From a virus (taxonomy: Duplodnaviria > Heunggongvirae > Uroviricota > Caudoviricetes), in IMG/VR virus record IMGVR_UViG_3300047476_001238, positions 15,712 to 79,711 of that record: 64,000 bases of DNA; one strand, 5' to 3'. Both the position numbers and the translations under genes were made by a program. Below the pieces are notes generated by a model, which saw only the letters and a program-made list of their open reading frames with translations, had not been told where the DNA came from and ran no database searches. This document shows positions 39,566-60,032 of this stretch, piece by piece (position 1 is the stretch's first letter; every line of letters starts with the position of its first letter).

Positions 39566-39770
39566 ATTCTGTTTTAAAATTATAGTTTGAATACATACTA
39601 CCTGGCTGACCAGGTTCATTACTTTCTGTACATTTTAATCTATGATCGCTAGCATGCGGGCAACGTTTATTGCCACACTTGGAGCATACAATCATTCGTG
39701 ATGCGGAAACTGGGAATCCGTATTCATTACGAACTCCATCTAAACAACGATGACAATTTCCACAGTTCAT
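39555..39770 (-). CDS. small Cys-rich protein (71 aa)
   Basis: CGNCHRC...CSKCGNKRC suggests a zinc ribbon. Confidence 0.4.
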   Translation of the reverse strand: MNCGNCHRCLDGVRNEYGFPVSASRMIVCSKCGNKRCPHASDHRLKCTESNEPGQPGSMYSNYNFKTEYDF

Positions 39771-41840: not shown

Positions 41841-41841
41841 A

Positions 41842-44803: not shown

Positions 44804-46210
44804 TTAGAAATTCAATTGACTACGGAATATTACTGCTCTATCGCCATTTACTCGACTACCCGAACTGCCTACTAAACCATCAAACTTGGTGTCAACATAG
44901 TTTACCATAAAACGTAGGTTATCAGTAGCGAACCAAGTGATGCCGTAAGTTGTGGCAGTGGCACGATTGGTTTTGCCAGTTGCCACAGCAATATCGCCGG
45001 CGTCAAATTCGCTGAAACGCACACCAACTTGCCATGCCCCGCGACCACCTTTGTCCAGTGGATTAGCAGGTTTAACTGCGCTAAACACACCATCCTTGTA
45101 GTTGTAGCTTTCGCCGGTTAGATTGTACAAGGCCTGTACATAATAACCTTTAATTTCTTGATTGCTACCTGTGGTAGGATCATATTTGAAATTAAATTGT
45201 TCACCTTGAAGTTTAAAAGCATTGTATGCAAAGGCTGCTTCTAGACCTTGACGAGTTCTGACAGTATCACCACTTAGTGCAGAACCTGTAAAGAAAGCAC
45301 TCTGTGATCTGCTCTCTGTGCGACTGCTAGCTGGTGCTACACCACCTTTGATATCACCTACACTGTATGCAGCACCTAGGTGTGCGATGTATGCCTTGCT
45401 GCCAGTAAGCTCAGCAATATTGGTTGTGACGCGACCAATATAGTCAAACCCATCGTTTGCGGCATCTTTGTTGCCACGACCGCGACTCACTGCCACAGCA
45501 TAGGTTAAACCAGTTTTAGGCACACCGTGCAGCATGAATCCTGTTTCCTTGCCAGGAATGAATTCACCTTCAACTTGACCTACTAGGCTACGTTCCATAA
45601 AATCAATATTGTTAGAACTGGTCAATTGCTCTAAGCTGAATGGCATCTTGAATAAACCAAACTGAAATTGCAGTTCAGGATTGGCTGCATAATTTACCCA
45701 GGCTACATCCATAAGGCTCGATGTTGAACTGAAGCCAACGTCGTTGCCAAAATTACCAACAAATTCGTATTTGAAATCCTTCTGGAATTGTCCACGTACA
45801 CCAAATCTAGCACGACGAACTTCTGCTAGGTTCTGATACGAATCTGTGGTTTGACCTGTACCGTAAGACGGGGAGTATTGACGATAGTCCATATGTAATC
45901 GACCTGTAAGCTGAATGGTATTGTTGCCATCTTTGCTTTTGAGCCCGATTCCGTTTTCGGTGACTGCACCATCGCTGGCCCTGGCTTGTCTGTATTTGAC
46001 TGACTCACTAACATCTTTGTCGATTCTTTGTTCTGCAAATCTTTTGTTTTCTGCTTTGTCTTTGTATTCTTCAACTTTGACATCATATTCCTTTTGTGTC
46101 AAGATACCTTTTTCACGTAAGATATTTAACGTGTCGATGTACTCGTCTGCGTATGCCGGCACACTAAATGCCAAACTTAACGCCAATGCAATTTTTGTAA
46201 ATGTTTTCAT
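44804..46210 (-). CDS. phosphate-selective porin O/P family outer membrane protein
   Basis: Signal peptide MKTFTKIALALSLAFSVPAYA, Lys/Arg-rich repetitive beta-strand pattern, C-terminal aromatic ...SQLNF. Length 468 aa is typical of OprO/OprP. Confidence 0.75.
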   Translation of the reverse strand: MKTFTKIALALSLAFSVPAYADEYIDTLNILREKGILTQKEYDVKVEEYKDKAENKRFAEQRIDKDVSESVKYRQARASDGAVTENGIGLKSKDGNNTIQLTGRLHMDYRQYSPSYGTGQTTDSYQNLAEVRRARFGVRGQFQKDFKYEFVGNFGNDVGFSSTSSLMDVAWVNYAANPELQFQFGLFKMPFSLEQLTSSNNIDFMERSLVGQVEGEFIPGKETGFMLHGVPKTGLTYAVAVSRGRGNKDAANDGFDYIGRVTTNIAELTGSKAYIAHLGAAYSVGDIKGGVAPASSRTESRSQSAFFTGSALSGDTVRTRQGLEAAFAYNAFKLQGEQFNFKYDPTTGSNQEIKGYYVQALYNLTGESYNYKDGVFSAVKPANPLDKGGRGAWQVGVRFSEFDAGDIAVATGKTNRATATTYGITWFATDNLRFMVNYVDTKFDGLVGSSGSRVNGDRAVIFRSQLNF

Positions 46211-46219
46211 TACTGTTCC

Positions 46220-47246
46220 TTATTTCCAAATTGGGTTGCCATCGGGACCTTTTAGATCACGTTTCCAACTGTCCTGATTTAATTTTATAACCGCCTGTGG
46301 CAAGTGAACGTATTCTAGTTCTTCACTCATCTTGGCTCCGTTCTTCCAACTCCAATCAAAGAATTTAAGAACAGCACGACCTGTTAGCGCATCTGCCTGA
46401 GACTTGTGCATGATAATAAAACTTGCACCTGTTGCTGGCCAAGCATCTCGGCCTGTCTGCCAGGTTAGTAGCAAATACATACCAGGAGCATTGACCCAGT
46501 CTGCGCCGGCTGCTGCTGCTTTGAATGTTGAGTCATCTGGTGATACAAAATTGCCATCGCGATTTTTTAGCTGTGCAAAAGTAATTTTATTTCTTTTAGC
46601 GAATGCATATTCTACATAACCAAATGCACCTTTGATACGCTGCACTTGTACAGCAACGCCTTCGTTGCCTTTACCGCCTACACCCACTGGCCATTTGACA
46701 GCAGTACCTTCGCCAACACCTTTAGCAAAATCAGCACTGGCTTTGCTTAAGAAGTTAGTCCAGATAAATGTAGTGCCTGAACCATCTGCACGATGAATTA
46801 CCACGATAGGAATAGCAGGCATACTAACACCTGGGTTCAAGTCTGCGATTGCTTTGTCATTCCACTTAGTGATTTTACCAAGATGAATGTTTGCAACGAT
46901 TTCGGGGGTTAACTTCAATTGACCTGGCGCAATACCGTCTAAGTTAAAAACTGGAACTACTCCGCCAATGATTGCCGGGAATTGCATTAGGCCTTCTTTT
47001 TCAAGTTCTTCTAATTTTAGTGGCATATCACTAGCACCAAAGTCTACTGTTTTTCCTTTGATTTGCTTGATACCGCCGCCTGATCCAATTGATTGATAAT
47101 TGAGACCAATACCTGTTGCTGCTTTGTATGCCTCAGCCCACTTGGCATAGATAGGAAAAGGGAATGTTGCTCCTGCTCCTGTTAATTCTGCTGCTCCGGC
47201 ATATCCGGTTAGTGCAACGAATACAATTGCTAATAGTTTTTTCACT
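46220..47246 (-). CDS. pstS: phosphate ABC transporter substrate-binding protein
   Basis: GTG start with a GGAG RBS, a signal peptide, and PstS blocks TGAGATFPFPIY, SIGSGGG, DFGASD, ADGSGTTF. Confidence 0.88.
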
Positions 47247-47321
47247 CTATAATCTCCATTTAATGTGCATTGCACAATAATATTTAAACATAGCAAGATT
47301 ACAAGCGTGTTACAAAACCAT

Positions 47322-47348
47322 AAAAAAAGGCACAAAAGTGCCTTTTTT
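47322..47348. terminator. bidirectional rho-independent terminator (GGCAC-AAAA-GTGCC)
   Basis: Perfect hairpin flanked by an A-run and a T-run, between pstS and the OMP gene. Confidence 0.6.
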
Positions 47349-47368
47349 GATTAAAATATTTAATCTAA

Positions 47369-47929
47369 TTAGAAACTACGTGTATAACTCACACGCCATT
47401 GATTAGTTTCTGTGTCGCCGTAGCTACGTGCATAACGAACACCCACTGAATCTTTAGGTGTGACTGCATAGTTCAAGCCAAAGTGTGGTCTAGTGGTTTG
47501 AAAATTGTTAGCTGTGTCGTATGCATTACGATATCTAACACCCACATCACCACTCAGTGAGCCGGCGATAGGAAATCTTGTACCAACGATAACATTGTAC
47601 TGTGCAAAGGTGTCGTTTGATTTCACAATTTGTCCGGTACGTAGACTGACATATGGCTTTAGGGTACCAAGATCAAACAATCTAGTGACACGAGCCTCTA
47701 GTCCGTTTGTAATTGCGCCATCACCTAGTTCGGCTTGACTGGTACGCATCTGTACAGAAAAATCCCAAGTTTTGTCTACTGTCATACCAGGTACAATTGC
47801 GTAGGCATAGTTTTTGGCACTGGTGTTGACATTTTCTTCGTCGTAGTATTCGAAGCGAACGTATCCTTTGGTCTCAGCCTGCGCTGCACCAGCAATTAAT
47901 AATGCAAATAATAGTAAAAATTTTTTCAT
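47369..47929 (-). CDS. small outer membrane beta-barrel protein (OmpW/OmpA-like, 8-10 strands)
   Basis: Signal peptide MKKFLLLFALLIAGAAQA, alternating hydrophobic beta pattern, and a C-terminal ...YTRSF. Confidence 0.6.
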   Translation of the reverse strand: MKKFLLLFALLIAGAAQAETKGYVRFEYYDEENVNTSAKNYAYAIVPGMTVDKTWDFSVQMRTSQAELGDGAITNGLEARVTRLFDLGTLKPYVSLRTGQIVKSNDTFAQYNVIVGTRFPIAGSLSGDVGVRYRNAYDTANNFQTTRPHFGLNYAVTPKDSVGVRYARSYGDTETNQWRVSYTRSF

Positions 47930-47957
47930 TGTTTTCTCCTTAAAAAAAATTGTTTAA

Positions 47958-48797
47958 TTAATCAGCCCAATTGGACTGCATTTTAGTGACGTACTGATTT
48001 ACTTCATCTAAATCTTTTTGCTTGATATCCCAATTGGCAACTGTGTCTGATGTTTCTAAAAATTTGTTAAAGTCTCTGCTTTGAACAGCGTATCTAAGAT
48101 TTTTTAGAACATTGGGATCAGTTGCATTAGTGTATACCACATAGGTAATTTGGAAATTAGGAATAGGTAAATTTAGTTTTTTACCAATAAAGTTTTTGGC
48201 TGCGGGATCTGTGCTGTAGATACAATCAAGATTGGCGCCTTGTTTTTTTGCCATTCCTGATCCTATCCAACCCAGGTCAACATCGCCAGACCGTACAGCA
48301 GTCACAATTTCTGCGCTACCAGGATATGGAACCAATTTGGTACTTGATCCGGCGCTGACAAAATTGTTTTCATGCTTGGGTACGGCGTACATACTGGCCA
48401 TGCCTAGTGTAGTTTTGTTATTACCAAAATCCACTGTTGACCCTGGTTTACGGCAGATGTTCACATAAGTATAACCAATGAACAGTATCTGCTGAGGCTT
48501 AATGCCTGCCAATGAGCAATTGATTTTTTTATTGCGAGCAGCAAAATCAATTGAACTGTTGTAAACCATAACAGCATTTTTATTGTTGTTAAAAGTGGCG
48601 ATAGCATCTTCGCAATCTCGTGCTTGATACCAGTCTCCATTAACAGCACTTCTATAGGCCTGACCCACCACTGTGGCAGGACTGGCTTTGTTGCTTGGAT
48701 TGATCACAAGAGGTTCCACTAAGTTAGCTGAACCAGGTTCAGCTACAGCAGATCCCATTGTCAAAATCAAAGCAGTTATAAAACTAACAAATTTCAT
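47958..48797 (-). CDS. TctC/Bug-family-like periplasmic substrate-binding protein
   Basis: Signal peptide MKFVSFITALILTMGSAVA. LVPYPGSAEIVTAVRSGDVDLGW resembles the TctC VPYKGG...GG.VD motif. Confidence 0.55.
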   Translation of the reverse strand: MKFVSFITALILTMGSAVAEPGSANLVEPLVINPSNKASPATVVGQAYRSAVNGDWYQARDCEDAIATFNNNKNAVMVYNSSIDFAARNKKINCSLAGIKPQQILFIGYTYVNICRKPGSTVDFGNNKTTLGMASMYAVPKHENNFVSAGSSTKLVPYPGSAEIVTAVRSGDVDLGWIGSGMAKKQGANLDCIYSTDPAAKNFIGKKLNLPIPNFQITYVVYTNATDPNVLKNLRYAVQSRDFNKFLETSDTVANWDIKQKDLDEVNQYVTKMQSNWAD

Positions 48798-48808
48798 TTT
48801 TTTTCTCC

Positions 48809-50101
48809 TTAGAAATAAAGTGTGTAAGCTTGTAAATATAACCAAACAAGTTTGTCGCCCAAAATTATTGTAAACAACAATGGTAATGAGCTAACGTTCT
48901 TGAATTTTAAAATTAAACCTATTGTAGTAAAAAATGCAAGTAAAGTCAAGTATGATACTACCGTAGTTTCGGCTGTGTACAAGTCAATGCCTATCAGTGC
49001 TGCCACAACTCCAATCATGACAAATTTCATTCGAGAATGTAAACTCACAATCAATCTAGCATAAAAATCTATTAGCCGTGTGCTCAAAAAATAGTAAACA
49101 AACAAACTAACTGTTAACGAAATCGCAGTGATATCTAGCACAGTCAGTGTGCCCATGAAACTATTTTCAAATATAGCACTTGGTAAGAATAAACTTTTTA
49201 AGTCTGCCAGATTTGACATTATCAAAGTGTTTTGATTGATTGGTAATGCAAATGCCAGCAGCGGCAATGCACATGCAATAACCGAACTGTTGTTTGCAGT
49301 TTCAGCAGCAACGATTCGATCATTAGTGCCAATTGTGGTTTTATAGGCCAATACTGATGCAGTAGTTGCACTTGGTCCGGGAACCAGTCCGGCCACTATA
49401 CCAAGTACAGTTGACTTCGCAGTCAGCCATAAATTTTGAGTTCTGCGAGCGATGTAATTCAATTGACTGTCATAGGTTGAACTGTCGTGTTTGGCAAACA
49501 CCTGCGGTATGATCATTACTCCCAGTAGTACCATAAAGAATGTGTACCCTTGAAATAAAGTTTTTAGTTCAAACCACGATGCTGTGATTGCATAATTGTT
49601 CTGTGGACTAATTGCAAATCCTAAACAGATTAACAATAAGGTCCACAGATAGTTTTTGTTTACATACAACAAACTTAATAACGTGATTGTGTATAAAACT
49701 ATCTGAAACTTTATACTGGACAAGAATGGTAAATTATCCAAGTTTACATACTGTAAAGCCACGTAGAGAAACACAGTACTCGCTATACCTGCAATTAAAC
49801 TACCAACAGCAGTTTGATACAACAATGCACGACGTTCATCTAGTGTAAGATAATCTAGATCTTTGAGATATACTAAAGAACTTTCTTCCCCAGGTATCTT
49901 GGTTGTAATAGTGGCCACGCTGCCAAAAAATTGACTGCCAGACACTACTACTAACCAAAACACCAGCAAGTACTCCAACGATAAATCGTTGTGAAAGTAA
50001 TACAGTATGAAAGGGCCTATGTAAACAGGCAATGCTGGAAGCAAGCCTGTTATGATACCCACAAAGATACCTGCCAGAATAATTAAAGTTAATGTAATCA
50101 C
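48809..50101 (-). CDS. tctA: TctA-family (tripartite tricarboxylate transporter large subunit) membrane protein
   Basis: 430 aa polytopic protein with repeated halves and the GLVPGPSATTA signature of TctA/DUF112. Starts on a GTG. Confidence 0.75.
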   Translation of the reverse strand: MITLTLIILAGIFVGIITGLLPALPVYIGPFILYYFHNDLSLEYLLVFWLVVVSGSQFFGSVATITTKIPGEESSLVYLKDLDYLTLDERRALLYQTAVGSLIAGIASTVFLYVALQYVNLDNLPFLSSIKFQIVLYTITLLSLLYVNKNYLWTLLLICLGFAISPQNNYAITASWFELKTLFQGYTFFMVLLGVMIIPQVFAKHDSSTYDSQLNYIARRTQNLWLTAKSTVLGIVAGLVPGPSATTASVLAYKTTIGTNDRIVAAETANNSSVIACALPLLAFALPINQNTLIMSNLADLKSLFLPSAIFENSFMGTLTVLDITAISLTVSLFVYYFLSTRLIDFYARLIVSLHSRMKFVMIGVVAALIGIDLYTAETTVVSYLTLLAFFTTIGLILKFKNVSSLPLLFTIILGDKLVWLYLQAYTLYF

Positions 50102-50269: not shown

Positions 50270-50277
50270 TATTTATA
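50270..50277 (-). promoter_or_regulatory. T4-type late promoter motif TATAAATA, about 170 nt upstream of tctA and overlapping the GT17 stop codon
   Basis: Exact octamer on the coding strand. Confidence 0.4.
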
Positions 50278-51103
50278 CTAGATAAGATCTTGCACTAGGA
50301 AAATTTCCAACAATAATATTGCTACTACCTTGTACATGCTTGGGCAAGTATTCATCTACTGCAACAGGAGCAAAACGATAATTTACATCGGTCTGTATAA
50401 TACCTGCACCACGTGCTATACTGGCTTCTATGTCCAGCTGTTCGAGTATGTCTGGCCGATTGGTTTCTGCATGAGCAAAACTTTGTATTTTGGTTTTTGC
50501 AAAATCTTCGTTGCCAAGATAAGTGAAATGCCACCCGGCATGTTCAACAATTTCCAGCATGGAATCTCGGGCTCCGTATTCAAAATCATTTAATGCGTGT
50601 CGCATGCGTCTAAAATCTTCTGCACTGACCAATAGTTTTTTTCTTAATGCGCCGGACCAGACTGTGTAGCAATCTTGGTTGATCAGCATGTAATTGTATC
50701 GGAAATTGAACAGGGGCATACGGAATCCCCAAATACTTCTTTCACTGGTTCTTAGATAATCCACTGTTTCTGGACGCGGAATTTCGTCTGCATCACCAAT
50801 CATGATAATATCTTCTGGTGCGGCATCGGCTACCGCTTGCACAATAGCATCGCGTTGATACCGTTCTCTTGCCCAAGCATCTGTGTCCACAGGCATATCT
50901 TCTACTACATAATGTATTATTTTGTCTGCCCATTCAGCGAATCGAATCGCATTTTCTTTGTAGTACAATGGTTTTTCTTTGTTCTGGAAAGTTCTTCTGG
51001 CTTCAACCAAAACAAAATGATCCACATGATCATAAAGTTCACGGAGACGTAGTTCTAGTAGCTCGAACTCGTTAAAAAATGTAAAACAGTCGTAGATTTT
51101 CAT
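50273..51103 (-). CDS. glycosyltransferase family 17-like protein
   Basis: N-terminus MKIYDCFTFFNEFELLELRL is typical of bacterial and phage GT17 homologs. DADEIP acidic motif present. Confidence 0.65.
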   Translation of the reverse strand: MKIYDCFTFFNEFELLELRLRELYDHVDHFVLVEARRTFQNKEKPLYYKENAIRFAEWADKIIHYVVEDMPVDTDAWARERYQRDAIVQAVADAAPEDIIMIGDADEIPRPETVDYLRTSERSIWGFRMPLFNFRYNYMLINQDCYTVWSGALRKKLLVSAEDFRRMRHALNDFEYGARDSMLEIVEHAGWHFTYLGNEDFAKTKIQSFAHAETNRPDILEQLDIEASIARGAGIIQTDVNYRFAPVAVDEYLPKHVQGSSNIIVGNFPSARSYLV

Positions 51104-51154
51104 GTCAATACTTAGTATAATAAATACTCTACAAATTGATTTTCAAGGAACTAT

Positions 51155-51796
51155 ATGCACGCCGTTGCTAGTCTACACGATGCCAATTATGCTGATTTGG
51201 CAAAACTAACCGATTCACCAAAACAAGAATACTGCGAACGTCACGGATACAAATTTTTTGTGCTTGATGAAATGAAGTATAGCACAATTACTGGCTTTAA
51301 CAAAATTCATTTTACTCTAGACTTATTCCAACAGCACCCAGAAATTGAATGGCTGTTGTTTAGTGAGTGCGACGCAATGATTACCAATTTAACAATTCGA
51401 ATTGAGGATCGTGTGGATGACAACTATCACTTTATTGTGCCTGTGGATCGACTGAATCTAAACTCAGGCAATTTCCTGGCTCGCAATAGCGAACAAGGTC
51501 GTGCATACTTGCAAATGATTGTAGACAGTGAAGCCGAATACAAAGATGTTGAATGGGCCGAACAACAAGTGATCATCGATACCATTGATCAATACCAAGA
51601 CATTGTCAAAATTGTTCCGCAAAAATACATGAACAGCTACGAACCGGAAATTTACGACTACTGCGACGCCAGCCGAGATATACTAGGCAACAGCGGTGCG
51701 TGGGAACCCGGAGATTGGATTGTTCATTGGCCCGGAACATACAAACCCACACGCATCAGTCGAGCAAATCATCACCTATCACAATTGACCAGATGA
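51155..51796 (+). CDS. putative GT-A glycosyltransferase (GMA12/MNN10-like)
   Basis: DXD-like ECD and a C-terminal HWPG. Confidence is low. Confidence 0.4.
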   Translation: MHAVASLHDANYADLAKLTDSPKQEYCERHGYKFFVLDEMKYSTITGFNKIHFTLDLFQQHPEIEWLLFSECDAMITNLTIRIEDRVDDNYHFIVPVDRLNLNSGNFLARNSEQGRAYLQMIVDSEAEYKDVEWAEQQVIIDTIDQYQDIVKIVPQKYMNSYEPEIYDYCDASRDILGNSGAWEPGDWIVHWPGTYKPTRISRANHHLSQLTR

Positions 51797-52635
51797 AAAT
51801 TTTTATTACTGGCGCTACAGGTTTTGTTGGGCAAAACCTAGTAGATTATTATTCTAAACGCGGTCACGAAGTCTATGCATTTCGTAGAGATGAGCAATTA
51901 CACGAATGCTTGCGTAAATTTCAGCCAGACGCTATAATTAACTCAGCAGCCGAGATATACGATCCCGAACACATGTTTGAACCGAACATTGTAATGGTTC
52001 AGACTGTGTTAGAATATGTTCGCGAATGTGATCAATACTGCCGTTTGGTTCAAATTGGTTCCAGCAGTGAATATGGGCCAACTGATCACTCAACTGCTGA
52101 AACAGATTTATTGAAGCCAGTTGATTACTATCAAGCTACCAAAGGTGCTGCAACATTGATGTGCCAAGGCTGGGCAAGATTTTTCAATTTGCCCGTTTGG
52201 ATTGTGAGACCGTACAGTGTATATGGCCCAGGTGAACGACCGCATAGATTGTTTCCTAGGTTGTATCGTGCGTTCAATTACAACGAGCCAATGACTCTGT
52301 ATCAAGGACATCATGATTTCATTTATATAAATGATTTTGTTCGTGGAATTGATTTGGTATTGCAAGAATGGGACCTGGCTCCGGGAGAAATTGTGAACTT
52401 CGGTAGCGGATCACAAACAAGTAATTTTGATCTATTGGACTTATGGATACGTATTACAGAAAATACCAATGCACCGGTGGCCAAGGTGGCCGAAATGCGA
52501 AAGGCGTTTGAAAACAACGTATGGGTCTGTGACGTTGCCAAATCTTTCAAATTGGGATTTGACTGCGAGTACACATTAGAAACAGGAATAAGAGATTTTT
52601 TATTAAAGGCAAAATATGATAGAACGATTAATTAA
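51793..52635 (+). CDS. NAD-dependent sugar epimerase/reductase (SDR, RmlD/GalE-like)
   Basis: Start at the ATG overlapping the upstream stop (ATGA). Rossmann motif ITGATGFVGQNL and YYQATK (YxxxK). Confidence 0.78.
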   Translation: MKIFITGATGFVGQNLVDYYSKRGHEVYAFRRDEQLHECLRKFQPDAIINSAAEIYDPEHMFEPNIVMVQTVLEYVRECDQYCRLVQIGSSSEYGPTDHSTAETDLLKPVDYYQATKGAATLMCQGWARFFNLPVWIVRPYSVYGPGERPHRLFPRLYRAFNYNEPMTLYQGHHDFIYINDFVRGIDLVLQEWDLAPGEIVNFGSGSQTSNFDLLDLWIRITENTNAPVAKVAEMRKAFENNVWVCDVAKSFKLGFDCEYTLETGIRDFLLKAKYDRTIN

Positions 52636-53323
52636 AACAAGTCAACAAAAGGACTTTGTTTATCAAAGCGAACATCCCGATGTCACGGCATGGTTCAATA
52701 ATCCAGAAAATTACACTGATGTAATTTTGAAACAAATAAACGAGGACGGCATGTACGATCCTATTTTTGCTGGACGCACTGATATGACTGTGCTTGATCT
52801 TGGAGCCAATTGCGGACTGTTCAGTTTATATGCAGCAGACAGTTGCAAGAAACTGATCTCTGTAGAACCAACACCAAAAACATTTGGTGTACTACAAGAA
52901 ATTGTTCGAGATCACGCAAATATTACTCCATTACAACTGGCTATTGGTCCACACAACGAAATGATTTCGTTCTATATTAACGAAAACTCAACCACCAATA
53001 GCATGCTCAATCGTAATGGCACCGAAACTCAAGTACAATGTATGACCCTAGAAACTTTGTTTCACATGCAGGGACTTGATCATGTAGACTTTATCAAATG
53101 TGACATTGAAGGTTCAGAAATGCAAGCATTAACTGATGCTACTCTTGGTCCAATTGCAGACCGGGTTAATTTTTGGTTTGTGGAAGTTCACCAAACTGAT
53201 GTTAAAGAAAATGCCTGGCCTGGCAACCTGGGTGCAAATAGGCAGCAACTTGCTGAACTGTTTCAACGTCACGGGTATCAAACTGAAATGGTCATTCACG
53301 ATCAATTGCTTGCATGGAAATGA
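52616..53323 (+). CDS. FkbM-family SAM methyltransferase
   Basis: VLDLGANCGLFSLYAA and FIKCDIEGSE FkbM signature blocks. Confidence 0.75.
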   Translation: MIERLIKTSQQKDFVYQSEHPDVTAWFNNPENYTDVILKQINEDGMYDPIFAGRTDMTVLDLGANCGLFSLYAADSCKKLISVEPTPKTFGVLQEIVRDHANITPLQLAIGPHNEMISFYINENSTTNSMLNRNGTETQVQCMTLETLFHMQGLDHVDFIKCDIEGSEMQALTDATLGPIADRVNFWFVEVHQTDVKENAWPGNLGANRQQLAELFQRHGYQTEMVIHDQLLAWK

Positions 53324-53934
53324 ACACACTAGCTCGTAGGGTAATTGATATTACCTACCAAGAACGTCTGAGTCACCTCAGCTCGACACTGAGTGCTTTG
53401 CCTATTATTGAAGAAATTTATGCTCAGAAGAAGGATGATGAAGTATTCATTCTGAGTAATGGTCATGCAGGACTTGCTCTATACGTGGTGCTTGAAAAAT
53501 ACCACGGTGTTGATCCAGTTGCTATGCTTCACAAACATGGGATCCATCCAGGTAGAGATCTAGAGAATCATTTGTACTGCTCTACAGGCAGTCTTGGTTC
53601 TGGATTACCTATCGCAGTTGGACACGCATTGGCAACTCCCAACAAGCAAGTTTACTGCATGATCAGTGACGGCGAAGCAGCCGAAGGTAGTATCTGGGAA
53701 GCATTACGTTTTATACAAGATAATAACATCACTAATCTACATGTGTACGTAAACATCAATGGTATGGGTGCATACGATGAGTTAGATACTCATCAATTGG
53801 CCTATCGGCTAGAAGCATTTTTACCTAGGATCAATTTAAGATTTAGCGATCCACCGCGATGGTCATTTGCAAAAGACCTACTAACACATTATTATGTTCT
53901 TAAAGAGCAAGACTACAAGGAGATTACTCAATGA
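53314..53934 (+). CDS. transketolase-like TPP enzyme, N-terminal (PP-domain) subunit
   Basis: GH...GSLGSGLPIAVGHALA and SDGEAAEGSIWEA (GDG-x-EG) thiamine-diphosphate-binding motifs. Only 206 aa. Confidence 0.8.
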   Translation: MEMNTLARRVIDITYQERLSHLSSTLSALPIIEEIYAQKKDDEVFILSNGHAGLALYVVLEKYHGVDPVAMLHKHGIHPGRDLENHLYCSTGSLGSGLPIAVGHALATPNKQVYCMISDGEAAEGSIWEALRFIQDNNITNLHVYVNINGMGAYDELDTHQLAYRLEAFLPRINLRFSDPPRWSFAKDLLTHYYVLKEQDYKEITQ

Positions 53935-54413
53935 GAAAAGAGTGTGCTAGTCTGTTATTAGAAAGCATGGTCAATACCGACCATATTCGTGTGATCACTG
54001 CTGATCTTGGATTTGGCATTTTGGACCAAATTCGCAATGCTTTTCCAGAACGTTTTTACAATGTTGGTGCAGCCGAACAACTGATGATTGGTGCTGCTGT
54101 AGGAATGGCACAAGAAGGTCTAGTACCTGTGTGTTATTCGATGAGTAGCTTTTTGCTCTATCGTCCTTTTGAATTCTTACGCAATTATGTCAATCACGAA
54201 CAGATACCAGTTAAACTGATTGGCTCTGGTAGAGATCGGGATTATAGCCACGATGGTATTAGCCATTGGGCACACGATGACGAACAGGTGCTTGCTGCTT
54301 TACCAAATATTAAATTATACAAACCTCAATCAATTGCTGAACTAGAGGATATTTGGCCTGTGTTTATTGGTTCCAAAGAACCTGCTTATTTAAATTTGAC
54401 AAGAAAAATATGA
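53931..54413 (+). CDS. transketolase-like TPP enzyme, pyrimidine-binding subunit (short, lacks the C-terminal domain)
   Basis: FNVGAAEQ, a Pyr-domain GxDGxTH-like SHDGISHWAHDD, and only 160 aa. Confidence 0.7.
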   Translation: MRKECASLLLESMVNTDHIRVITADLGFGILDQIRNAFPERFYNVGAAEQLMIGAAVGMAQEGLVPVCYSMSSFLLYRPFEFLRNYVNHEQIPVKLIGSGRDRDYSHDGISHWAHDDEQVLAALPNIKLYKPQSIAELEDIWPVFIGSKEPAYLNLTRKI

Positions 54414-55366
54414 CAACAAAAGTAGTTTACGTCACCGGCTGTCTGGGCTTTATTGGATATCACGTGACTAAAAAATGTCTAGCACAAGGATACTATGTTA
54501 TTGGTGTAGACAAGAAAACCTATGCAGCAAATGTACAGTTCCTTCCAGAACTGTTAGAATATAAAGATCAGTTCAAGTTCATTGATTCCGATATCAACGA
54601 TCTTGACATGCTGTACGACTGTGATTATATTATCAATACCGCAGCCGAGACACATGTTGATAACAGTATTGTGAGCAGTGATGTTTTCTTACGTAGCAAT
54701 GTAAATGGTGTACATCATTTGCTCAACTTGATCAAAGAGCGTCATCGTTTCAAAATGCCCACGCTACTGCATTTTAGTACAGACGAAGTCTACGGCGACA
54801 TCGAAGAAGGCGCACATGTTGAAACAGATCTACTAAAACCTAGTAATCCTTATTCGGCCACAAAAGCAGCAGCGGATCAATTGATTATTGCATGGGCACG
54901 TACATTCCGGGTGCCTTATGTTATTGTTAGACCTACAAACAATTACGGCATTGGTCAATACACAGAAAAGTTTATTCCTAAAACTATTAAGAGTTTGCAG
55001 TTAGGAAGAAAAATTCCGCTGCATGATGCCGGTATGCCACGCCGTACTTGGCTTCATGTGAGTGATACTGCATCGGCTGTTATAAAAATCATTGAGTCTG
55101 GTGTTCAAAACGAAATTTTCAACATAAGCGGAAATCACGAAGAACAAAATATTGTGATTGCCATGCAAATTATTGATATGTTTTGTCCCAACGAAGTAGA
55201 CGATTACGATTTGTATTTGGACTTGTCTATTAAACGACCCGGACAAGATGTTCGATACAGTATTGACGATCAAAAATTAAAGGCTCTTGGATGGAAACCA
55301 AAAGCTATTTTTGAAGTAGAACTGGCTAAGATTGTTCAGTACTATTCCCAGACGTTTGTGTGGTAG
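54410..55366 (+). CDS. NDP-sugar 4,6-dehydratase/epimerase (SDR)
   Basis: ATGA-coupled start. VYVTGCLGFIGYHV, STDEVYG, YSATKAAAD. Confidence 0.82.
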   Translation: MTTKVVYVTGCLGFIGYHVTKKCLAQGYYVIGVDKKTYAANVQFLPELLEYKDQFKFIDSDINDLDMLYDCDYIINTAAETHVDNSIVSSDVFLRSNVNGVHHLLNLIKERHRFKMPTLLHFSTDEVYGDIEEGAHVETDLLKPSNPYSATKAAADQLIIAWARTFRVPYVIVRPTNNYGIGQYTEKFIPKTIKSLQLGRKIPLHDAGMPRRTWLHVSDTASAVIKIIESGVQNEIFNISGNHEEQNIVIAMQIIDMFCPNEVDDYDLYLDLSIKRPGQDVRYSIDDQKLKALGWKPKAIFEVELAKIVQYYSQTFVW

Positions 55367-55832
55367 CAACTTCAATCCACGTATAATCACCTAACCACTT
55401 GACTGGTGCAATGTAGCTATAGCTCTCCGGTGCACCAGTCGTCCAGTCATTGGGTCCTTGGTGACACAATCTAGTACGATTTATTTTACTATCAAAACAT
55501 AACCAATAGGTTTGTCCGTGGTATACCTGAAACTGATATTCAGCTGCATGTACTGCATCAGTGATGTACAATCTACGTTTTATATCGTCGGCCTGTTTCT
55601 GTAAGACCTTTACCAAATCCATAATACGATCATACTCTTGCTCGGCGTGCATGCGAGCAACATTGACCATTATATCTTTTTGTTTTTGTACGGGAATTAA
55701 ATCAAAGGCGGGACCACCAACTTCGGTGGCGTAGGGTGTGATATTTTTATTAAAAAAGGCGACTAATTCGCCGCCTATTTGTGCATCGTAGCTGTCCTTG
55801 CCTTTAGCTACATTACTTTTTTTCTTGCTCAT
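55326..55832 (-). CDS. hypothetical protein (168 aa)
   Basis: ORF with no motif. Confidence 0.45.
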   Translation of the reverse strand: MSKKKSNVAKGKDSYDAQIGGELVAFFNKNITPYATEVGGPAFDLIPVQKQKDIMVNVARMHAEQEYDRIMDLVKVLQKQADDIKRRLYITDAVHAAEYQFQVYHGQTYWLCFDSKINRTRLCHQGPNDWTTGAPESYSYIAPVKWLGDYTWIEVATTQTSGNSTEQS

Positions 55833-56428: not shown

Positions 56429-56675
56429 CTAGATCCAACTCTTCTACAATAGGAGCAACTGACCAATCGGTATTATCTCTAATATCTTTAATCATTTCGT
56501 CACAAGCCTGTTGTGCCTGATCTTTGTTGACGTAAGCTTTTTCGAAAATACGATTTCCGTCGGCAAACTCTGCCATGGCAATATAAATTTTTTTCATGTT
56601 ATAATTATAAACGATTTGAAAATTATTGTCAATGAACTTTGGCATCAGTGCAGCTTTTACACAAACTGTCTGCAC
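56418..56675 (-). CDS. hypothetical protein (85 aa)
   Basis: Coupled ORF. Confidence 0.35.
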   Translation of the reverse strand: MQTVCVKAALMPKFIDNNFQIVYNYNMKKIYIAMAEFADGNRIFEKAYVNKDQAQQACDEMIKDIRDNTDWSVAPIVEELDLVDE

Positions 56676-57477
56676 TGTAGCAAGGTTTCATATTTTCTCT
56701 GATAAGATTTACCATAGGAGATCCGGTATACAAATCATCGTAAGAATCGCGTACCAAGTTTCCTATCACATGTTTTAAATCGTAATCCATACAGCACAAA
56801 ACTACGTCTCCGTTTGGTAATAATACATGCTGATCGTAATTTGCTGTTTTGCTGCAACTGACCGGGCGTTCATGGCGAGTAATAAAATTTACTGGTTGCT
56901 CTTTGACTTGTTCTTTGTTAAGACTTCCTGCTCGGTCATGACCAAACCAATTGTAAAGCTGTATTCCCAAATGGCTGAGATCTTTGTGTACTTTACCATG
57001 ATTGCTCATGGTCATTGCTTCAAGTTTAATATTGGCTTCTCGTACTGCGGTGGTCACCATATGGAATACTGCTTCCCATTCGGTGCTGTATTTCCACCCT
57101 CGCATGTTTCCGTACTCATCTGGAAAATGTACACTCAGCACTTCAATTTGTGCTCTGTACCGGTAAAGTAATGGTATCACTCGCTCGGCAGTTTCAATGT
57201 CCCAATTATAAAAAGTAGTGTAGATAGCCACATTGTGTCCAGAAATCAATGCATGCTCTAACATGTCTGTTGCAGCAGGATTGATCCAGGCTTCGGCCAT
57301 GCCCGAAAAATCAATTCGAGTATTTTTTGGCACCTTTGATAGTGCTGTTTTGAATGTGTCCAGACTCATGTACTTGACATCATTGCCATACATTTCTCTG
57401 AGATTGTCTTGAGGACAAAAATTGCACATCAGTGAACAACCAATCATGGTTGTTATTTCCATTGTAGGTCTTTGCAT
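56629..57477 (-). CDS. radical SAM enzyme with a SPASM/twitch-like Cys-rich C-terminus
   Basis: CSLMCNFC (Cx3Cx2C) at residue 14 and a C-terminal VLCCMDYD...CYSADSLCKSC cluster. Confidence 0.8.
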   Translation of the reverse strand: MQRPTMEITTMIGCSLMCNFCPQDNLREMYGNDVKYMSLDTFKTALSKVPKNTRIDFSGMAEAWINPAATDMLEHALISGHNVAIYTTFYNWDIETAERVIPLLYRYRAQIEVLSVHFPDEYGNMRGWKYSTEWEAVFHMVTTAVREANIKLEAMTMSNHGKVHKDLSHLGIQLYNWFGHDRAGSLNKEQVKEQPVNFITRHERPVSCSKTANYDQHVLLPNGDVVLCCMDYDLKHVIGNLVRDSYDDLYTGSPMVNLIRENMKPCYSADSLCKSCTDAKVH

Positions 57478-59243: not shown

Positions 59244-60032
59244 TTATATCTGCGCTGCTTGACTGCCGGAATCTAATCGTTCAATATCTTCTTCGACACA
59301 TTGCTCGCCGTATTGAATTTCAACAATTGTACAAGGTCGCGTAAACGGATTAGTCAGTTGATGCCAGGTGTTTTTTGGTACACGCCATTCATCGTACTTT
59401 CCTAAGATTTTAGGCGGATTTTGCATATCTCCGGGCAAGGCCATATTGATCATACAGGTGCCCTCTGTCACCATCCAGTACTCATTGCGATGTTGATGGC
59501 GCTGCATACTGAGTGTTTGCCCGGGCATTACTTGTAATGTTTTTACTTTGGCACCGGGTATTTCATTTAGTACTGTATAACTGCCCCAAGCACGTTGAAC
59601 TTCAACCGAAGTCCAACGCTTTAAAATATCGCTGCTGCTGTTTAGTTTGTCATCACCGCCTACACCAAACACAAATTCAACATCGCTAAAAATCATTTCA
59701 GGAATGTTATCTTGAGTTCTATCCCCGCCATTGGCAAAAATGATTTTTCCTTTGGGGAACATCTCTTTGACTCGTCTTATAGCATCACAAGCAGTTCCGT
59801 CTGTGTCGTCAAACTCAATTACACGATCGACCATGTGTAAATTGTCTAGCACTGTCATGCGTTCGTGCCAGGTCATAAATGAACGCCCTTTTTTACGTGC
59901 AAGCCAAGCATCTGAGTTTAGCCCAACCACGAGCCAATCGCCCAAGTGGTCAGCATGGTTGAGGTAGGATATGTGTCCACTGTGTACTGGATCAAATCCG
60001 CCAGTGCATATTACAATTCGTTCAGCGTTCAT
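59244..60032 (-). CDS. bifunctional-looking sugar-phosphate nucleotidyltransferase (HIGH-motif cytidylyl/adenylyltransferase fold) fused to a C-terminal cupin domain
   Basis: N-terminal CTGGFDPVHSGH (HxGH). C-terminal QRHQHRNEYWMVTEG cupin motif. Confidence 0.65.
   Translation of the reverse strand: MNAERIVICTGGFDPVHSGHISYLNHADHLGDWLVVGLNSDAWLARKKGRSFMTWHERMTVLDNLHMVDRVIEFDDTDGTACDAIRRVKEMFPKGKIIFANGGDRTQDNIPEMIFSDVEFVFGVGGDDKLNSSSDILKRWTSVEVQRAWGSYTVLNEIPGAKVKTLQVMPGQTLSMQRHQHRNEYWMVTEGTCMINMALPGDMQNPPKILGKYDEWRVPKNTWHQLTNPFTRPCTIVEIQYGEQCVEEDIERLDSGSQAAQI

What the first reader, a model, noticed from the sequence alone, without database searches (positions are those of the whole stretch)
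50273..55366. Second glycan locus: GT17 and GT-A transferases, two SDR enzymes, an FkbM O-methyltransferase and a minimal split transketolase, forming the only plus-strand block
The only sizeable plus-strand gene block (51155-55366) encodes a GT-A-like transferase, an SDR epimerase/reductase, an FkbM methyltransferase (typically sugar O-methylation), a two-gene split transketolase-like TPP enzyme and a 4,6-dehydratase. The block reads divergently from the GT17-like gene at 50273-51103. A transketolase could raise sedoheptulose-7-P supply for the adjacent ADP-heptose pathway, analogous to cyanophage transaldolase. Alternatively it could perform a two-carbon transfer on an NDP-sugar. Both subunits are much shorter than canonical split transketolases, and the second lacks the C-terminal domain, which suggests a specialised ketol-transferase. 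The strand switch and ATGA couplings suggest acquisition as a module.
Basis: partly seen in the sequence, partly recalled or inferred. Interest (0 to 1): 0.75.

Follow-up and report, generated by a model that had tools for sequence, protein, structure and literature searches.

The report
Phage sugar operon with minimal transketolase
A large uncultured phage carries a tightly packed, widely conserved sugar-building operon whose core is an intact but stripped-down two-piece transketolase-type enzyme, which most likely adds a two-carbon branch to a nucleotide-activated keto-sugar; that chemistry has been proposed for transketolases but never demonstrated.

Summary
Window 50273-55366 carries a GT17 gene on the minus strand and a divergent six-gene plus-strand operon: GT34-like transferase, extended SDR, FkbM methyltransferase, a 206-aa ThDP (PP) subunit, a 160-aa Pyr subunit, and an RmlB-like 4,6-dehydratase. 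All five gene junctions overlap.

The two transketolase pieces are not a broken gene. They belong to a discrete, monophyletic short family under strong purifying selection (dN/dS at most 0.13). Every transketolase cofactor and catalytic residue checked is kept, except E. coli H461 and S385, which could not be placed. What is missing is the whole C-terminal (TKC) domain and a ~45-residue segment of the PP domain.

In 63 related viral loci with enough flank, the pair sits with the SDR (58), dehydratase (56) and GT34 (56). In 10 of 11 bacterial MAG loci an SDR lies next to or near the pair, among glycosyltransferases.

My best reading is ThDP-dependent two-carbon transfer onto an NDP-keto-sugar, followed by reduction, O-methylation and transfer. 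This is inferred, not shown. The sedoheptulose-7-P supply idea is disfavoured by gene context but not excluded by the residues. GC content and codon usage give no sign of recent acquisition. I rate it a new variant of a known kind.

The parts
50273..51103 (-). GT17-family glycosyltransferase (276 aa), divergent from the operon
   Evidence: Pfam PF04724, E 2.5e-29, 102.9 bits against a cut-off of 26. A homologue lies near the cassette in 35 of 63 viral loci. In L126-L133 it sits on the same strand inside the cassette.
51104..51154 (.). 51-bp divergent intergenic region holding the likely control region of both transcription units
   Evidence: Sequence read. It contains TATAATAAATA, which resembles the T4 late-promoter motif TATAAATA, and an AAGGAA Shine-Dalgarno 7 nt before the ATG at 51155. 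A sigma-70-like match on the minus strand lies at 51146-51117. These are pattern matches only.
51155..51796 (+). GT34/GMA12-MNN10-like GT-A glycosyltransferase (213 aa), first gene of the operon
   Evidence: Pfam PF05637, E 2.6e-20, 73.6 bits against a cut-off of 23. Present in 56 of 63 viral cassettes. No PHROG family matches.
51793..52635 (+). Extended short-chain dehydrogenase/reductase 'SDR1' (280 aa); oxidoreductase partner of the ThDP enzyme
   Evidence: PF01370, E 1.4e-38. Conserved GxxGFxG, G[ST]SSEYG and YxxTK motifs in 68 homologues. Present in 58 of 63 viral cassettes. Adjacent to or near the pair in 10 of 11 MAG loci.
52616..53323 (+). FkbM-family SAM methyltransferase (235 aa); optional tailoring step
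   Evidence: TIGR01444, 82.4 bits against a cut-off of 37.7; PF05050, E 1.8e-17. Present in 40 of 63 viral cassettes. In other members a methyltransferase is fused to the PP subunit (P0171, P0212).
53314..53934 (+). Minimal transketolase-type ThDP-binding (PP-domain) subunit, 206 aa
   Evidence: NCBIfam PRK05899.2-5, E 4.8e-23. Human transketolase in PDB, E 1e-11. AF2 model pLDDT 94.6; best fold matches are split transketolase 6yak (TMq 0.78) and human transketolase (0.79), against DXS 0.57 and PDH-E1alpha about 0.55. H21, H51, H78, S118-D119-G120, N149 and H192 correspond to E. coli H26, H66, H100, G154-D155-G156, N185 and H261. All except position 118 (S in 73, T in 2) are invariant in 75 of 75 family members.
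53931..54413 (+). Minimal transketolase-type Pyr-domain subunit, 160 aa, with no TKC domain
   Evidence: PF02779, E 3e-20, covering profile positions 6-170 of 174. C chain of split transketolase 6yaj, E 4e-18. R2, E49, F74, D108, H112 and R158 correspond to E. coli R358, E411, F437, D469, H473 and R520. The protein ends at the last Pyr-domain strand. No stand-alone TKC domain was found in the window.
54410..55366 (+). RmlB-like NDP-hexose 4,6-dehydratase (318 aa); supplies an NDP-4-keto-6-deoxyhexose
   Evidence: TIGR01181, E 5.2e-85, 285 bits, below the equivalog cut-off of 365. The translation shows the STDEVYG (Thr-Asp-Glu) and YSATK motifs and an Asp-ended beta2. Present in 56 of 63 viral cassettes.

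Best explanation
The block is a conserved phage operon for making and transferring a modified deoxy-sugar. Its core is a functional, reduced heteromeric transketolase-lineage ThDP enzyme (PP subunit plus Pyr subunit only).

Proposed pathway (inferred):
1. The RmlB-like enzyme converts an NDP-hexose, supplied by the host or another phage gene, into an NDP-4-keto-6-deoxyhexose.
2. The TKN/TKC enzyme forms a ThDP-bound two-carbon carbanion. This would be dihydroxyethyl-ThDP from a ketose phosphate or hydroxypyruvate if the enzyme is truly TK-like, or hydroxyethyl-ThDP from pyruvate if it is DXS-like. It adds this unit to the sugar carbonyl, giving a C-branched tertiary alcohol.
3. SDR1 reduces the new side-chain (or ring) ketone. 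Alternatively, in loci that lack a dehydratase, SDR1 itself generates the keto-sugar.
4. FkbM O-methylates the product in those phages that carry it.
5. The GT34-like and GT17-like transferases attach the sugar to an unknown acceptor, such as a virion protein or a host envelope glycan.

Shown: gene identities, operon structure, intact cofactor and catalytic residues, purifying selection, and the conserved gene association.

Inferred: the substrates, the order of steps, C-branching as the chemistry, and the acceptor.
For: 1. The enzyme is intact. E. coli transketolase H26, H66, H100, D155, N185, H261, E411, F437 and H473 are conserved in 75 of 75 minimal pairs. R358 is conserved in 75 of 75, R520 in 73 and D469 in 67.

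2. The fold is that of a transketolase PP domain. The AF2 model has pLDDT 94.6 and TMq 0.78-0.79 to split and human transketolase, against 0.5-0.6 for DXS and E1.

3. It is a selected gene family, not decay.
- 112 clusters (at 50% identity) score E<1e-30, nearly all 200-225 aa.
- More than 4000 homologues were found, the top 120 all 203-207 aa.
- dN/dS is 0.02-0.13 with saturated dS.
- The family is monophyletic in an NJ tree.

4. The gene association is conserved.
- In 63 viral loci with adequate flanks, TKC is present in 63, SDR1 in 58, RmlB in 56, GT34 in 56 and FkbM in 40.
- In 10 of 11 MAG loci an SDR1 homologue lies adjacent to or near the pair, with GT2, GT4, GT47-like and methyltransferase neighbours.

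5. Independent contexts point to glycan assembly.
- L177 reads SDR, MT-TKN fusion, short TKC, GT2, an unknown gene, then a PMT_2 GT-C.
- L048 places a canonical split TK next to an SDR-GT2 fusion, a Wzx flippase and NeuB.
- 48 of 69 canonical split-TK loci have at least one SDR/dehydratase-, C-methyltransferase- or nucleotidyltransferase-type homologue within about 8 kb.

6. A methyltransferase is fused to the PP subunit in P0171 and P0212.

7. A dehydratase with the Thr-Asp-Glu signature in the same operon supplies exactly the kind of keto-sugar that the known ThDP sugar-branching enzymes (YerE, alphaKADH2) use. Split-gene transketolases have been proposed for such branching in miharamycin and amipurimycin (PMC12247030).
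Against: - No transketolase has been shown to accept a ketone or an NDP-sugar. The Streptomyces precedent is itself unproven.
- The family keeps the residues that in classical transketolase bind a sugar phosphate and the acceptor C2-OH (R358, R520, D469 equivalents). An ordinary sugar-phosphate ketol transfer is therefore not excluded.
- Some phages carry only SDR-TKN-TKC, with no dehydratase or glycosyltransferase nearby (L173/L174). L172 lacks the dehydratase.
- SDR1's role cannot be assigned from sequence. Its SSE motif resembles UXS/ArnA-type enzymes, and its cofactor-specificity residues are not conserved.
- No hexose-1-phosphate nucleotidyltransferase of the RmlA type was identified in the part of the window that I annotated.
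- Donor, acceptor and final glycan are all unknown.
Confidence: 0.5

Rival explanations
1. The pair is a genuine, miniaturised pentose-phosphate transketolase acting as an auxiliary metabolic gene. It would interconvert sugar phosphates and raise sedoheptulose-7-P for the phage's ADP-heptose-type locus, by analogy with cyanophage transaldolase. On this reading its position in the glycan operon is only co-regulation.
For: - The full transketolase catalytic set is retained, including the phosphate-binding Arg pair and the D469 equivalent.
- The closest folds and sequences are true transketolases.
- The window has RfaE-I-like kinase, RfaE-II-like adenylyltransferase, HldD-like epimerase and GT9-like genes at 35.9-40.6 kb.
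- The phage carries other host-metabolism genes, such as PstS and a phosphate porin.
Against: - The pair is linked to an SDR in 58 of 63 viral loci and 10 of 11 MAG loci, and to a 4,6-dehydratase and GT34 in 56 of 63. Heptose-gene homologues are not conserved neighbours; the HldD-like query hit only overlapping SDRs.
- Methyltransferase fusions and GT2/GT-C or SDR-GT2 contexts have no place in pentose-phosphate metabolism.
- No GmhA (SIS-domain) gene was found in the annotated part of the window.
- The E. coli H461 position is Gly in the alignment.
Confidence: 0.15
2. The enzyme is a ThDP lyase or decarboxylase that cleaves a C-C bond next to a sugar carbonyl rather than forming one. Examples would be shortening a keto-heptose or keto-sugar side chain, or a retro-ketol cleavage. 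The SDR would create or remove the carbonyl.
For: - ThDP chemistry is reversible.
- The phage also encodes heptose-type enzymes and a second dehydratase.
- The SDR-TKN-TKC triad occurs alone in some phages, which would fit a two-step remodelling of a host nucleotide sugar.
Against: - No precedent is known to me for nucleotide sugars.
- The conserved D469 and Arg equivalents and the His set fit a transferase with two substrates.
- The presence of a dedicated dehydratase and transferases is equally well explained by branching.
Confidence: 0.1
3. The two short ORFs are remnants of an ordinary split transketolase: a truncated or frameshifted pseudogene carried along in the operon.
For: - Both ORFs are much shorter than canonical subunits.
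- Pfam Transketolase_N is only at threshold, 22.1 bits against a cut-off of 22.
Against: - The same lengths recur in hundreds of phage and MAG homologues down to about 35% identity.
- dN/dS is 0.02-0.13.
- All cofactor and catalytic residues checked are invariant.
- The model folds with pLDDT 94.6.
- The deletions are clean, at domain and secondary-structure boundaries.
Confidence: 0.01

Closest known systems
Split-gene transketolase (e.g. Carboxydothermus hydrogenoformans alpha2beta2, PDB 6YAK/6YAJ) and classical transketolases (E. coli TktA, human TKT)
   Same: - Same PP-then-Pyr order on two polypeptides.
- Best sequence and fold matches.
- The same ThDP/Mg motif, activating Glu, catalytic His set and phosphate-binding Arg pair.
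   Different: - Lacks the entire TKC domain.
- Lacks a ~45-residue beta-alpha-beta ('GHD') segment of the PP domain.
- The two subunits are 206+160 aa, against about 270+305 aa.
- Always sits in sugar-tailoring or glycosyltransferase neighbourhoods rather than central metabolism.
- Scores far below NCBIfam transketolase equivalog cut-offs.
Split-gene transketolases proposed to transfer a hydroxyacetyl unit to a keto-sugar in miharamycin/amipurimycin biosynthesis (Streptomyces; review PMC12247030)
   Same: A two-gene transketolase paired with an oxidoreductase in a sugar-tailoring cluster. The same hypothetical chemistry is proposed: a ThDP C2 unit added to a sugar ketone.
   Different: - Those are reported only from Streptomyces secondary-metabolite clusters, and their function is still unproven.
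- This family occurs in phages and in diverse uncultured bacteria, sits in glycan-assembly contexts, and is domain-reduced.
YerE/YerF (yersiniose A) and alphaKADH2 E1alpha/beta enzymes (AviB1/B2, aldgamycin, KbDH-alpha/beta)
   Same: The pathway logic matches: an NDP-keto-deoxysugar is made by a dehydratase or decarboxylase SDR, a ThDP enzyme adds a C2 branch, and the branch is then reduced or methylated.
   Different: - These belong to different ThDP superfamilies. YerE is in the decarboxylase/AHAS-like lineage and alphaKADH2 is E1-type.
- For the window's PP subunit, Pfam E1_dh (PF00676) was not reported at E<=0.01. The only E1-type match was NCBIfam TIGR03182 (PDH E1 alpha) at E 1.1e-4, far below its cut-off.
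- Fold similarity to E1alpha is TMq about 0.55, against 0.78 to transketolase.
Cyanophage transaldolase (talC) and other phage pentose-phosphate auxiliary metabolic genes
   Same: A phage-borne homologue of a central carbon-shuffling enzyme.
   Different: - talC is a stand-alone metabolic gene.
- This enzyme is translationally coupled inside a glycan operon, and that arrangement is conserved across phages.
Sulfopyruvate decarboxylase ComD/ComE (from my own knowledge, not tested here)
   Same: A minimal two-subunit ThDP enzyme built only of a Pyr domain and a PP domain, of similar sizes.
   Different: - Opposite gene order (Pyr first).
- It belongs to the decarboxylase-type lineage.
- NCBIfam sulfopyruvate decarboxylase beta matched only marginally, at E 0.0032.

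Membership tests
Transketolase (TK superfamily of ThDP enzymes) | ThDP/Mg2+ binding motif G-D-G ... N in the PP domain | tested here: met
   S118-D119-G120 ... N149. D, G and N are invariant in 75 of 75 family members. SDG is also the commonest form in the canonical split TKs.
Transketolase (TK superfamily of ThDP enzymes) | Cofactor-activating Glu in the Pyr domain, plus the catalytic His set (E. coli E411; H26, H66, H100, H261, H473) | tested here: met
   E49, H21, H51, H78, H192 and H112 are all present in 75 of 75 members.
Transketolase (TK superfamily of ThDP enzymes) | Substrate phosphate and C2-OH binding residues (E. coli R358, S385, H461, D469, R520) | tested here: inconclusive
   R2 is present in 75 of 75, R158 in 73 and D108 in 67. 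The H461 position aligns to Gly and S385 falls in a gap. The alignment in this loop is uncertain.
Transketolase (TK superfamily of ThDP enzymes) | Three-domain architecture PP - Pyr - TKC | tested here: not met
   The Pyr subunit ends at the R520 equivalent. No TKC domain is encoded downstream or elsewhere in the window. The PP domain also lacks about 45 residues.
Transketolase (TK superfamily of ThDP enzymes) | Reaches curated family score cut-offs | tested here: not met
   NCBIfam transketolase equivalogs score 81 bits (PP) and 57 bits (Pyr) against a cut-off of 488. Pfam Transketolase_N scores 22.1 against 22, which is borderline. Pfam Transket_pyr scores 73 against 27, which is met.
Transketolase (TK superfamily of ThDP enzymes) | Ketol transfer between ketose and aldose phosphates | not testable with these tools
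   Needs an enzyme assay.
ThDP-dependent sugar-branching systems (YerE-like, alphaKADH2, proposed TK type) | ThDP enzyme encoded with an enzyme that generates an NDP-keto-sugar, together with tailoring and transfer genes | tested here: met
   An RmlB-like dehydratase, an SDR, FkbM and GT34/GT17 lie in one locus. The association is conserved across loci.
ThDP-dependent sugar-branching systems (YerE-like, alphaKADH2, proposed TK type) | Homology to YerE (decarboxylase lineage) or to E1 alpha/beta (alphaKADH2) | tested here: not met
   Domain order and best matches are of the transketolase type. For the window's PP subunit, Pfam E1_dh was not reported at E<=0.01, and the NCBIfam PDH E1 alpha match was only E 1.1e-4. 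Fold TMq to E1alpha is about 0.55, against 0.78 to transketolase.
ThDP-dependent sugar-branching systems (YerE-like, alphaKADH2, proposed TK type) | Acceptance of a sugar ketone as electrophile, giving a branched product | not testable with these tools
   Needs in vitro reconstitution and LC-MS/NMR.
NDP-hexose 4,6-dehydratase (RmlB type) | Extended SDR with Thr-Asp-Glu and YxxxK catalytic motifs | tested here: met
   STDEVYG and YSATK are visible in the translation. TIGR01181 gives E 5e-85, but its 285 bits fall below the equivalog cut-off of 365. The nucleotide specificity is unknown.
FkbM methyltransferase family | TIGR01444 / PF05050 domain above the curated cut-off | tested here: met
   82.4 bits against 37.7, and 64.4 bits against 22.7.
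CAZy GT17 and GT34 glycosyltransferases | Pfam family domain above the gathering score | tested here: met
   GT17 scores 102.9 against 26. GT34 scores 73.6 against 23, with a partial profile match in two stretches. Donor and acceptor were not tested.
Phage pentose-phosphate auxiliary metabolic gene (talC-like role) | Stand-alone central-metabolism enzyme whose presence does not depend on glycan genes | tested here: not met
   The pair was never found on its own. Wherever enough flank was available it had SDR, dehydratase or glycosyltransferase neighbours.

The most novel reading that the evidence does not exclude
The TKN/TKC pairs define a new, widespread class of minimal transketolase-lineage carboligases built only of a PP and a Pyr domain (about 366 aa in total). 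Together with a partner SDR, they would install a two-carbon (hydroxyacetyl or dihydroxyethyl) branch on nucleotide-activated keto-sugars. That would be the first transketolase-type sugar branching outside Streptomyces antibiotics. Large environmental phages would use it to build an unusual branched, O-methylated sugar on their virions or on the infected cell surface.
Probability: 0.4. Interest if true: 0.78.

Novelty: new variant of a known kind. Interest (0 to 1): 0.62.

Why it matters
- **The chemistry is unproven.** ThDP-dependent C-branching of sugars is established for YerE-like and E1-type enzymes. For transketolases it remains only a proposal (PMC12247030). This family offers a small, abundant and apparently soluble two-subunit system in which to test that proposal directly.
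- **It bears on the role of the TKC domain.** The family is a natural experiment showing that both the TKC domain and part of the PP domain are dispensable in the transketolase lineage. That is relevant to the long-unclear role of the TKC domain and to the design of minimal carboligases for biocatalysis.
- **It adds to phage glycobiology.** The cassette is common: 525 IMG/VR contigs encode a relative of the PP subunit (the cassette itself was checked in the best 80 loci), and there are thousands of metagenomic proteins. It has no PHROG family and no counterpart of the cassette in a cultured phage. Large freshwater phages therefore appear to build elaborate, possibly branched and methylated glycans whose targets and roles are unknown. 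Those roles could include virion shielding, host-surface remodelling or superinfection exclusion.
- **It exposes a related bacterial module.** The same analysis shows an uncharacterised 'split transketolase + SDR' module in bacterial surface-polysaccharide loci.

Tried and rejected
- **Nucleotide search of cultured phages.** A blastn search with the whole block found nothing. A tblastn search with TKN gave only weak hits. These were a lone ThDP-binding ORF in Campylobacter phages CP220/CPt10/CP21, with no Pyr partner or glycan genes, and contigs whose hits look like ordinary split transketolases.
- **Pseudogene reading.** Rejected on family-wide length conservation, dN/dS and invariant catalytic residues.
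- **Recent horizontal acquisition judged by composition.** Rejected, because GC, GC3 and codon usage are indistinguishable from the rest of the window.
- **DXS or PDH-E1 identity.** Considered, because the Pyr subunit hits DXS models and the PP subunit hits TPP_enzyme_C. The fold search and the best sequence matches favour transketolase. The donor (pyruvate or a ketose) stays open, because DXS shares the same His set.
- **Phosphonopyruvate or sulfopyruvate decarboxylase.** Only marginal NCBIfam hits, the wrong domain order, and no PEP mutase nearby.
- **Assigning SDR1 as reductase or oxidase from cofactor motifs.** The Arg after beta2 is conserved in the phage clade (59 of 68 sequences) but not in the bacterial members. 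This was inconclusive.
  - The first 49-sequence alignment was too diverse for the search for related loci.
- **Literature searches.** Searches for transketolase in O-antigen or capsule clusters, or in jumbo phages, found nothing relevant beyond the review.

Full report
**1. What is in the sequence**

| Coordinates | Strand | Gene | Key evidence |
|---|---|---|---|
| 50273-51103 | - | GT17 glycosyltransferase | E 2.5e-29 |
| 51155-51796 | + | GT34/GMA12-like GT-A transferase | E 2.6e-20 |
| 51793-52635 | + | extended SDR, 280 aa | E 1.4e-38 |
| 52616-53323 | + | FkbM methyltransferase | TIGR01444, 82 bits vs cut-off 37.7 |
| 53314-53934 | + | ThDP-binding PP-domain protein, 206 aa | NCBIfam transketolase E 4.8e-23; Pfam Transketolase_N only at threshold |
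| 53931-54413 | + | Pyr-domain protein, 160 aa | PF02779, E 3e-20, nearly the full profile |
| 54410-55366 | + | RmlB-like 4,6-dehydratase | TIGR01181, E 5e-85; STDEVYG and YSATK motifs |

- For the SDR, the ATG at 51793 matches the called homologue in L001, not the upstream GTG.
- The five junctions of the plus-strand genes overlap by 4, 20, 10, 4 and 4 nt, and three are ATGA. The block therefore reads as one translationally coupled operon.
- The operon diverges from GT17 across a 51-bp spacer. The spacer carries a TATAAATA-like element and a good Shine-Dalgarno sequence.
- It is the only multi-gene plus-strand block in the window.

**2. Genomic setting**

- The window is from a large T4-like phage. 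It encodes phage-type ribonucleotide reductase, a DnaB-like helicase, a UvsW-like helicase and a RecA/UvsX-like protein.
- A 352-kb JGI contig (L001) carries the same seven genes in the same order. Its PP subunit is 84% identical to the window's.
- Upstream, at 35.9-43.6 kb, lies another sugar locus. It holds RfaE-I-like kinase, RfaE-II-like adenylyltransferase, HldD-like epimerase, a GT9-like transferase, a TylC3-like C-methyltransferase and a second RmlB-like dehydratase.
- The block's GC (0.402), GC3 (0.348) and codon usage match the rest of the window, where GC is 0.403 and GC3 is 0.346. Composition therefore gives no sign of recent acquisition.

**3. The transketolase pair is a real, reduced enzyme family**

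Distribution and size:
- A search of 1.8 billion representative proteins found 112 clusters (at 50% identity) with E<1e-30, nearly all 200-225 aa.
- The larger collection returned more than 4000 homologues. The top 120 are all 203-207 aa.
- In the fetched loci the sizes are bimodal. Minimal pairs are about 201-216 aa plus 155-161 aa. Canonical split transketolases are 255-290 aa plus 288-325 aa.

Residues, by alignment with E. coli TktA and Dxs:
- Every cofactor and catalytic residue checked is present in 75 of 75 minimal pairs. The E. coli residues are H26, H66, H100, D155, N185, H261, E411, F437 and H473.
- R358 is kept in 75 of 75, R520 in 73 and D469 in 67.

What is missing:
- A ~45-residue beta-alpha-beta segment of the PP domain (the 'GHD' region) is deleted.
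- Everything after the last Pyr-domain strand is absent, meaning the linker and the whole TKC domain.
- No stand-alone TKC domain is encoded in the window.

Fold, selection and phylogeny:
- An AF2 model of the PP subunit is confident (pLDDT 94.6).
- It superposes best on split transketolase 6yak (TMq 0.78) and human transketolase (0.79). It fits DXS (0.57) and PDH-E1alpha (about 0.55) less well.
- Against close phage homologues, dN/dS is 0.03-0.08 for the PP subunit and 0.02-0.13 for the Pyr subunit, with synonymous sites saturated.
- In an NJ tree the minimal pairs are monophyletic and sister to the canonical split transketolases. MAG-derived members are basal and the phage members are nested within them (no bootstrap).

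**4. Conserved company**

Viral loci:
- IMG/VR holds 525 contigs that encode a relative of the PP subunit.
- Of the best 80 loci (60-89% identity), 63 have enough flank to score. Among those, the Pyr subunit is present in 63, the SDR in 58, the dehydratase in 56, GT34 in 56, FkbM in 40 and GT17 in 35.
- Two contigs carry two TKN-TKC pairs (L130, L132).

More distant members:
- A T4-like contig has GT34-SDR-FkbM-TKN-TKC without a dehydratase (L172).
- Another phage has only SDR-TKN-TKC (L173/L174).

Bacterial MAG loci:
- In species-representative genomes, 11 MAG loci carry minimal pairs at 42-53% identity. They come from CPR phyla, Bacteroidales, Flavobacteriaceae, a Gammaproteobacteria MAG, Cloacimonas, Aquaspirillum and Omnitrophota.
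- Ten of the 11 have an SDR1 homologue adjacent to or near the pair, and three have FkbM.
- Two of these loci (L017, L009) were annotated with Pfam. Their neighbours are GT2, GT4, GT47-like and nucleotide-diphospho-sugar transferases, plus methyltransferases.
- Some of these MAG contigs may themselves be phage or mobile DNA. An integrase and a helicase lie nearby.

Two especially informative contexts:
- L177 looks bacterial and reads SDR, [methyltransferase-TKN fusion], short TKC, GT2, an unknown gene, then a PMT_2-type GT-C. This is the layout of an Arn-like pathway that modifies a nucleotide sugar and then transfers it through a polyprenyl phosphate.
- L048 is on a Cloacimonadota chromosome. 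It has a canonical split transketolase followed by an SDR-GT2 fusion, with a Wzx flippase, NeuB and a methyltransferase alongside.

Canonical split-transketolase loci:
- Overall, 48 of 69 have at least one SDR/dehydratase-, C-methyltransferase- or nucleotidyltransferase-type homologue within about 8 kb.
- About 13 have an SDR directly after the Pyr subunit.

The functional unit is thus 'SDR + two-subunit transketolase'. It recurs inside glycan-assembly loci, and the phage cassette is a compact version of it.

**5. Mechanism**

What is shown:
- an operon of sugar-nucleotide-type enzymes and glycosyltransferases;
- a catalytically complete ThDP enzyme of transketolase lineage;
- a dehydratase with the Thr-Asp-Glu signature that would make an NDP-4-keto-6-deoxyhexose.

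What is inferred:
- The ThDP enzyme adds a two-carbon unit to that carbonyl, or to one made by SDR1.
- The SDR reduces the resulting ketone.
- FkbM O-methylates the product.
- GT34 and GT17 transfer the sugar.

Precedents for the logic:
- YerE/YerF and the E1-type alphaKADH2 enzymes branch NDP-keto-sugars in this way.
- Split-gene transketolases paired with an oxidoreductase have been proposed, but never demonstrated, to do the same in miharamycin and amipurimycin biosynthesis (PMC12247030).
- From my own reasoning: the path from C4 to the anomeric phosphate of an NDP-4-keto-hexose has the same number of atoms as C1 to the phosphate in erythrose-4-P. The retained Arg pair and the D469 equivalent could therefore bind such a substrate. 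Loss of the TKC domain and the PP segment might make room for the nucleotide. This is untested.

The main caveat:
- Those same retained residues are what a classical sugar-phosphate transketolase would have.
- No transketolase has yet been shown to take a ketone or an NDP-sugar.
- The identity of the donor cannot be read from the sequence, because E. coli Dxs shares the His set. It could be a ketose phosphate or hydroxypyruvate, or it could be pyruvate.
- SDR1 cannot be assigned as the keto-sugar maker or as the reductase.

**6. Rival explanations**

- **Sedoheptulose-7-P supply.** This is compatible with the active-site residues and with the upstream heptose-type locus. It does not explain the near-invariant linkage to the SDR, dehydratase and glycosyltransferases, the methyltransferase fusions, or the bacterial GT2/GT-C contexts. 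I give it about 0.15.
- **C-C cleavage.** Possible but without precedent. About 0.1.
- **Pseudogene.** Excluded by the conservation data.

**7. Comparison with known systems, and novelty**

- The enzyme works like, and descends from, transketolase. It fails the family's three-domain architecture and the curated equivalog thresholds, so I do not file it as an ordinary transketolase.
- The pathway works like known ThDP sugar-branching systems but uses a different ThDP superfamily.
- Neither the PP subunit nor GT34 matches any PHROG family. No cultured phage in the collection carries the cassette.
- I found no paper describing this family.
- I rate it a new variant of a known kind. It has clear experimental tests, and it is of moderate to high interest for ThDP enzymology and phage glycobiology.

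Noticed in passing
window 35973-43595 (- strand): A first sugar locus. It holds an HldD-like epimerase (35973-36758), an RfaE-II-like adenylyltransferase (36733-37137), a cupin (37727-38086), an RfaE-I-like heptose-7-P kinase (38083-38856), a GT9 heptosyltransferase-like gene (39767-40639), a TylC3-like NDP-hexose C-methyltransferase (40629-41840) and a second RmlB-like 4,6-dehydratase (42561-43595). All score below their equivalog cut-offs. The phage may therefore make two different branched sugars, one C-methyl and one C2-branched.
   Followed up: partly
window 44804-50101 (- strand); compare L001 4441-6912: A block of host-envelope and uptake genes lies next to the cassette: phosphate-selective porin O/P (44804-46210), PstS-like phosphate-binding protein (46220-47335), a small OMP beta-barrel (47369-47929), a possible TctC-like periplasmic protein with no Pfam hit (47958-48845), and TctA (48809-50101). 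In the 352-kb relative L001, no gene is called between PstS and GT17, so the three genes from the beta-barrel to TctA are an insertion/deletion difference between the two phages.
   Followed up: partly
window 59244-60032 (- strand): An unusual fusion of an RfaE-II/cytidylyltransferase-like nucleotidyltransferase domain with a mannose-6-P-isomerase-type C-terminal cupin. The usual partner of that cupin is an NTP_transferase domain. The gene is conserved downstream of the cassette in the close relatives.
   Followed up: no
L038, L039, L042, L046, L048, L058, L060, L068, L073 and others; L048 9633-11600: Canonical-length split transketolases in bacterial genomes are often followed directly by an SDR. 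In L048 that SDR is fused to a GT2 and sits inside a polysaccharide locus with Wzx and NeuB. This 'split TK + SDR' module appears to be uncharacterised.
   Followed up: partly
P0171 / L177 8001-9677; P0212; P0135, P0180, P0190: Fusion proteins involving the PP subunit. P0171 has an N-terminal class I methyltransferase, still keeps the 'GHD' segment, and is paired with a short Pyr subunit. That suggests the TKC domain was lost before the PP-domain deletion. P0212 has a C-terminal Methyltransf_24 domain. P0135, P0180 and P0190 carry an N-terminal segment with an HNH-endonuclease-like Cys/His motif, as judged by eye; they were not profile-searched.
   Followed up: partly
L130 and L132 (IMG/VR contigs): Two TKN-TKC pairs lie on one viral contig, at 60/53% and 72/68% identity to the window's subunits. 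This suggests duplication or a second acquisition of the enzyme.
   Followed up: no
L009 7801-8457; L013 8614-9231; L173 7768-8004 and 8654-8857: In some members, small extra ORFs are inserted between the SDR, the PP subunit and the Pyr subunit. One of them (L013) is weakly TylF-like, a methyltransferase family.
   Followed up: no
L007 5944-6522 (Campylobacter phage CP220 gp072, also CPt10 and CP21): Cultured Campylobacter phages encode a lone 192-aa ThDP-binding protein about 25% identical to the PP subunit. No adjacent Pyr subunit or sugar gene is present, and its function is unknown.
   Followed up: partly
window 17869-19032, 56629-57477, 61470-62747 (- strand): Three radical-SAM/SPASM-type proteins are scattered through the window, two of them close to the glycan cassette. 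I did not examine their roles.
   Followed up: no
window 55326-55366: The dehydratase gene and the convergent DUF2452 gene (55326-55832, - strand) overlap by 41 bp at their 3' ends. The same 41-bp overlap is found in L001 (12010-12050).
   Followed up: no
window 22986-23396 and 34606-34995 (+ strand): Two single plus-strand ORFs (136 and 129 aa) lie in gaps between minus-strand genes and may be real genes. If so, the cassette is the only plus-strand operon but not the only plus-strand coding sequence.
   Followed up: no
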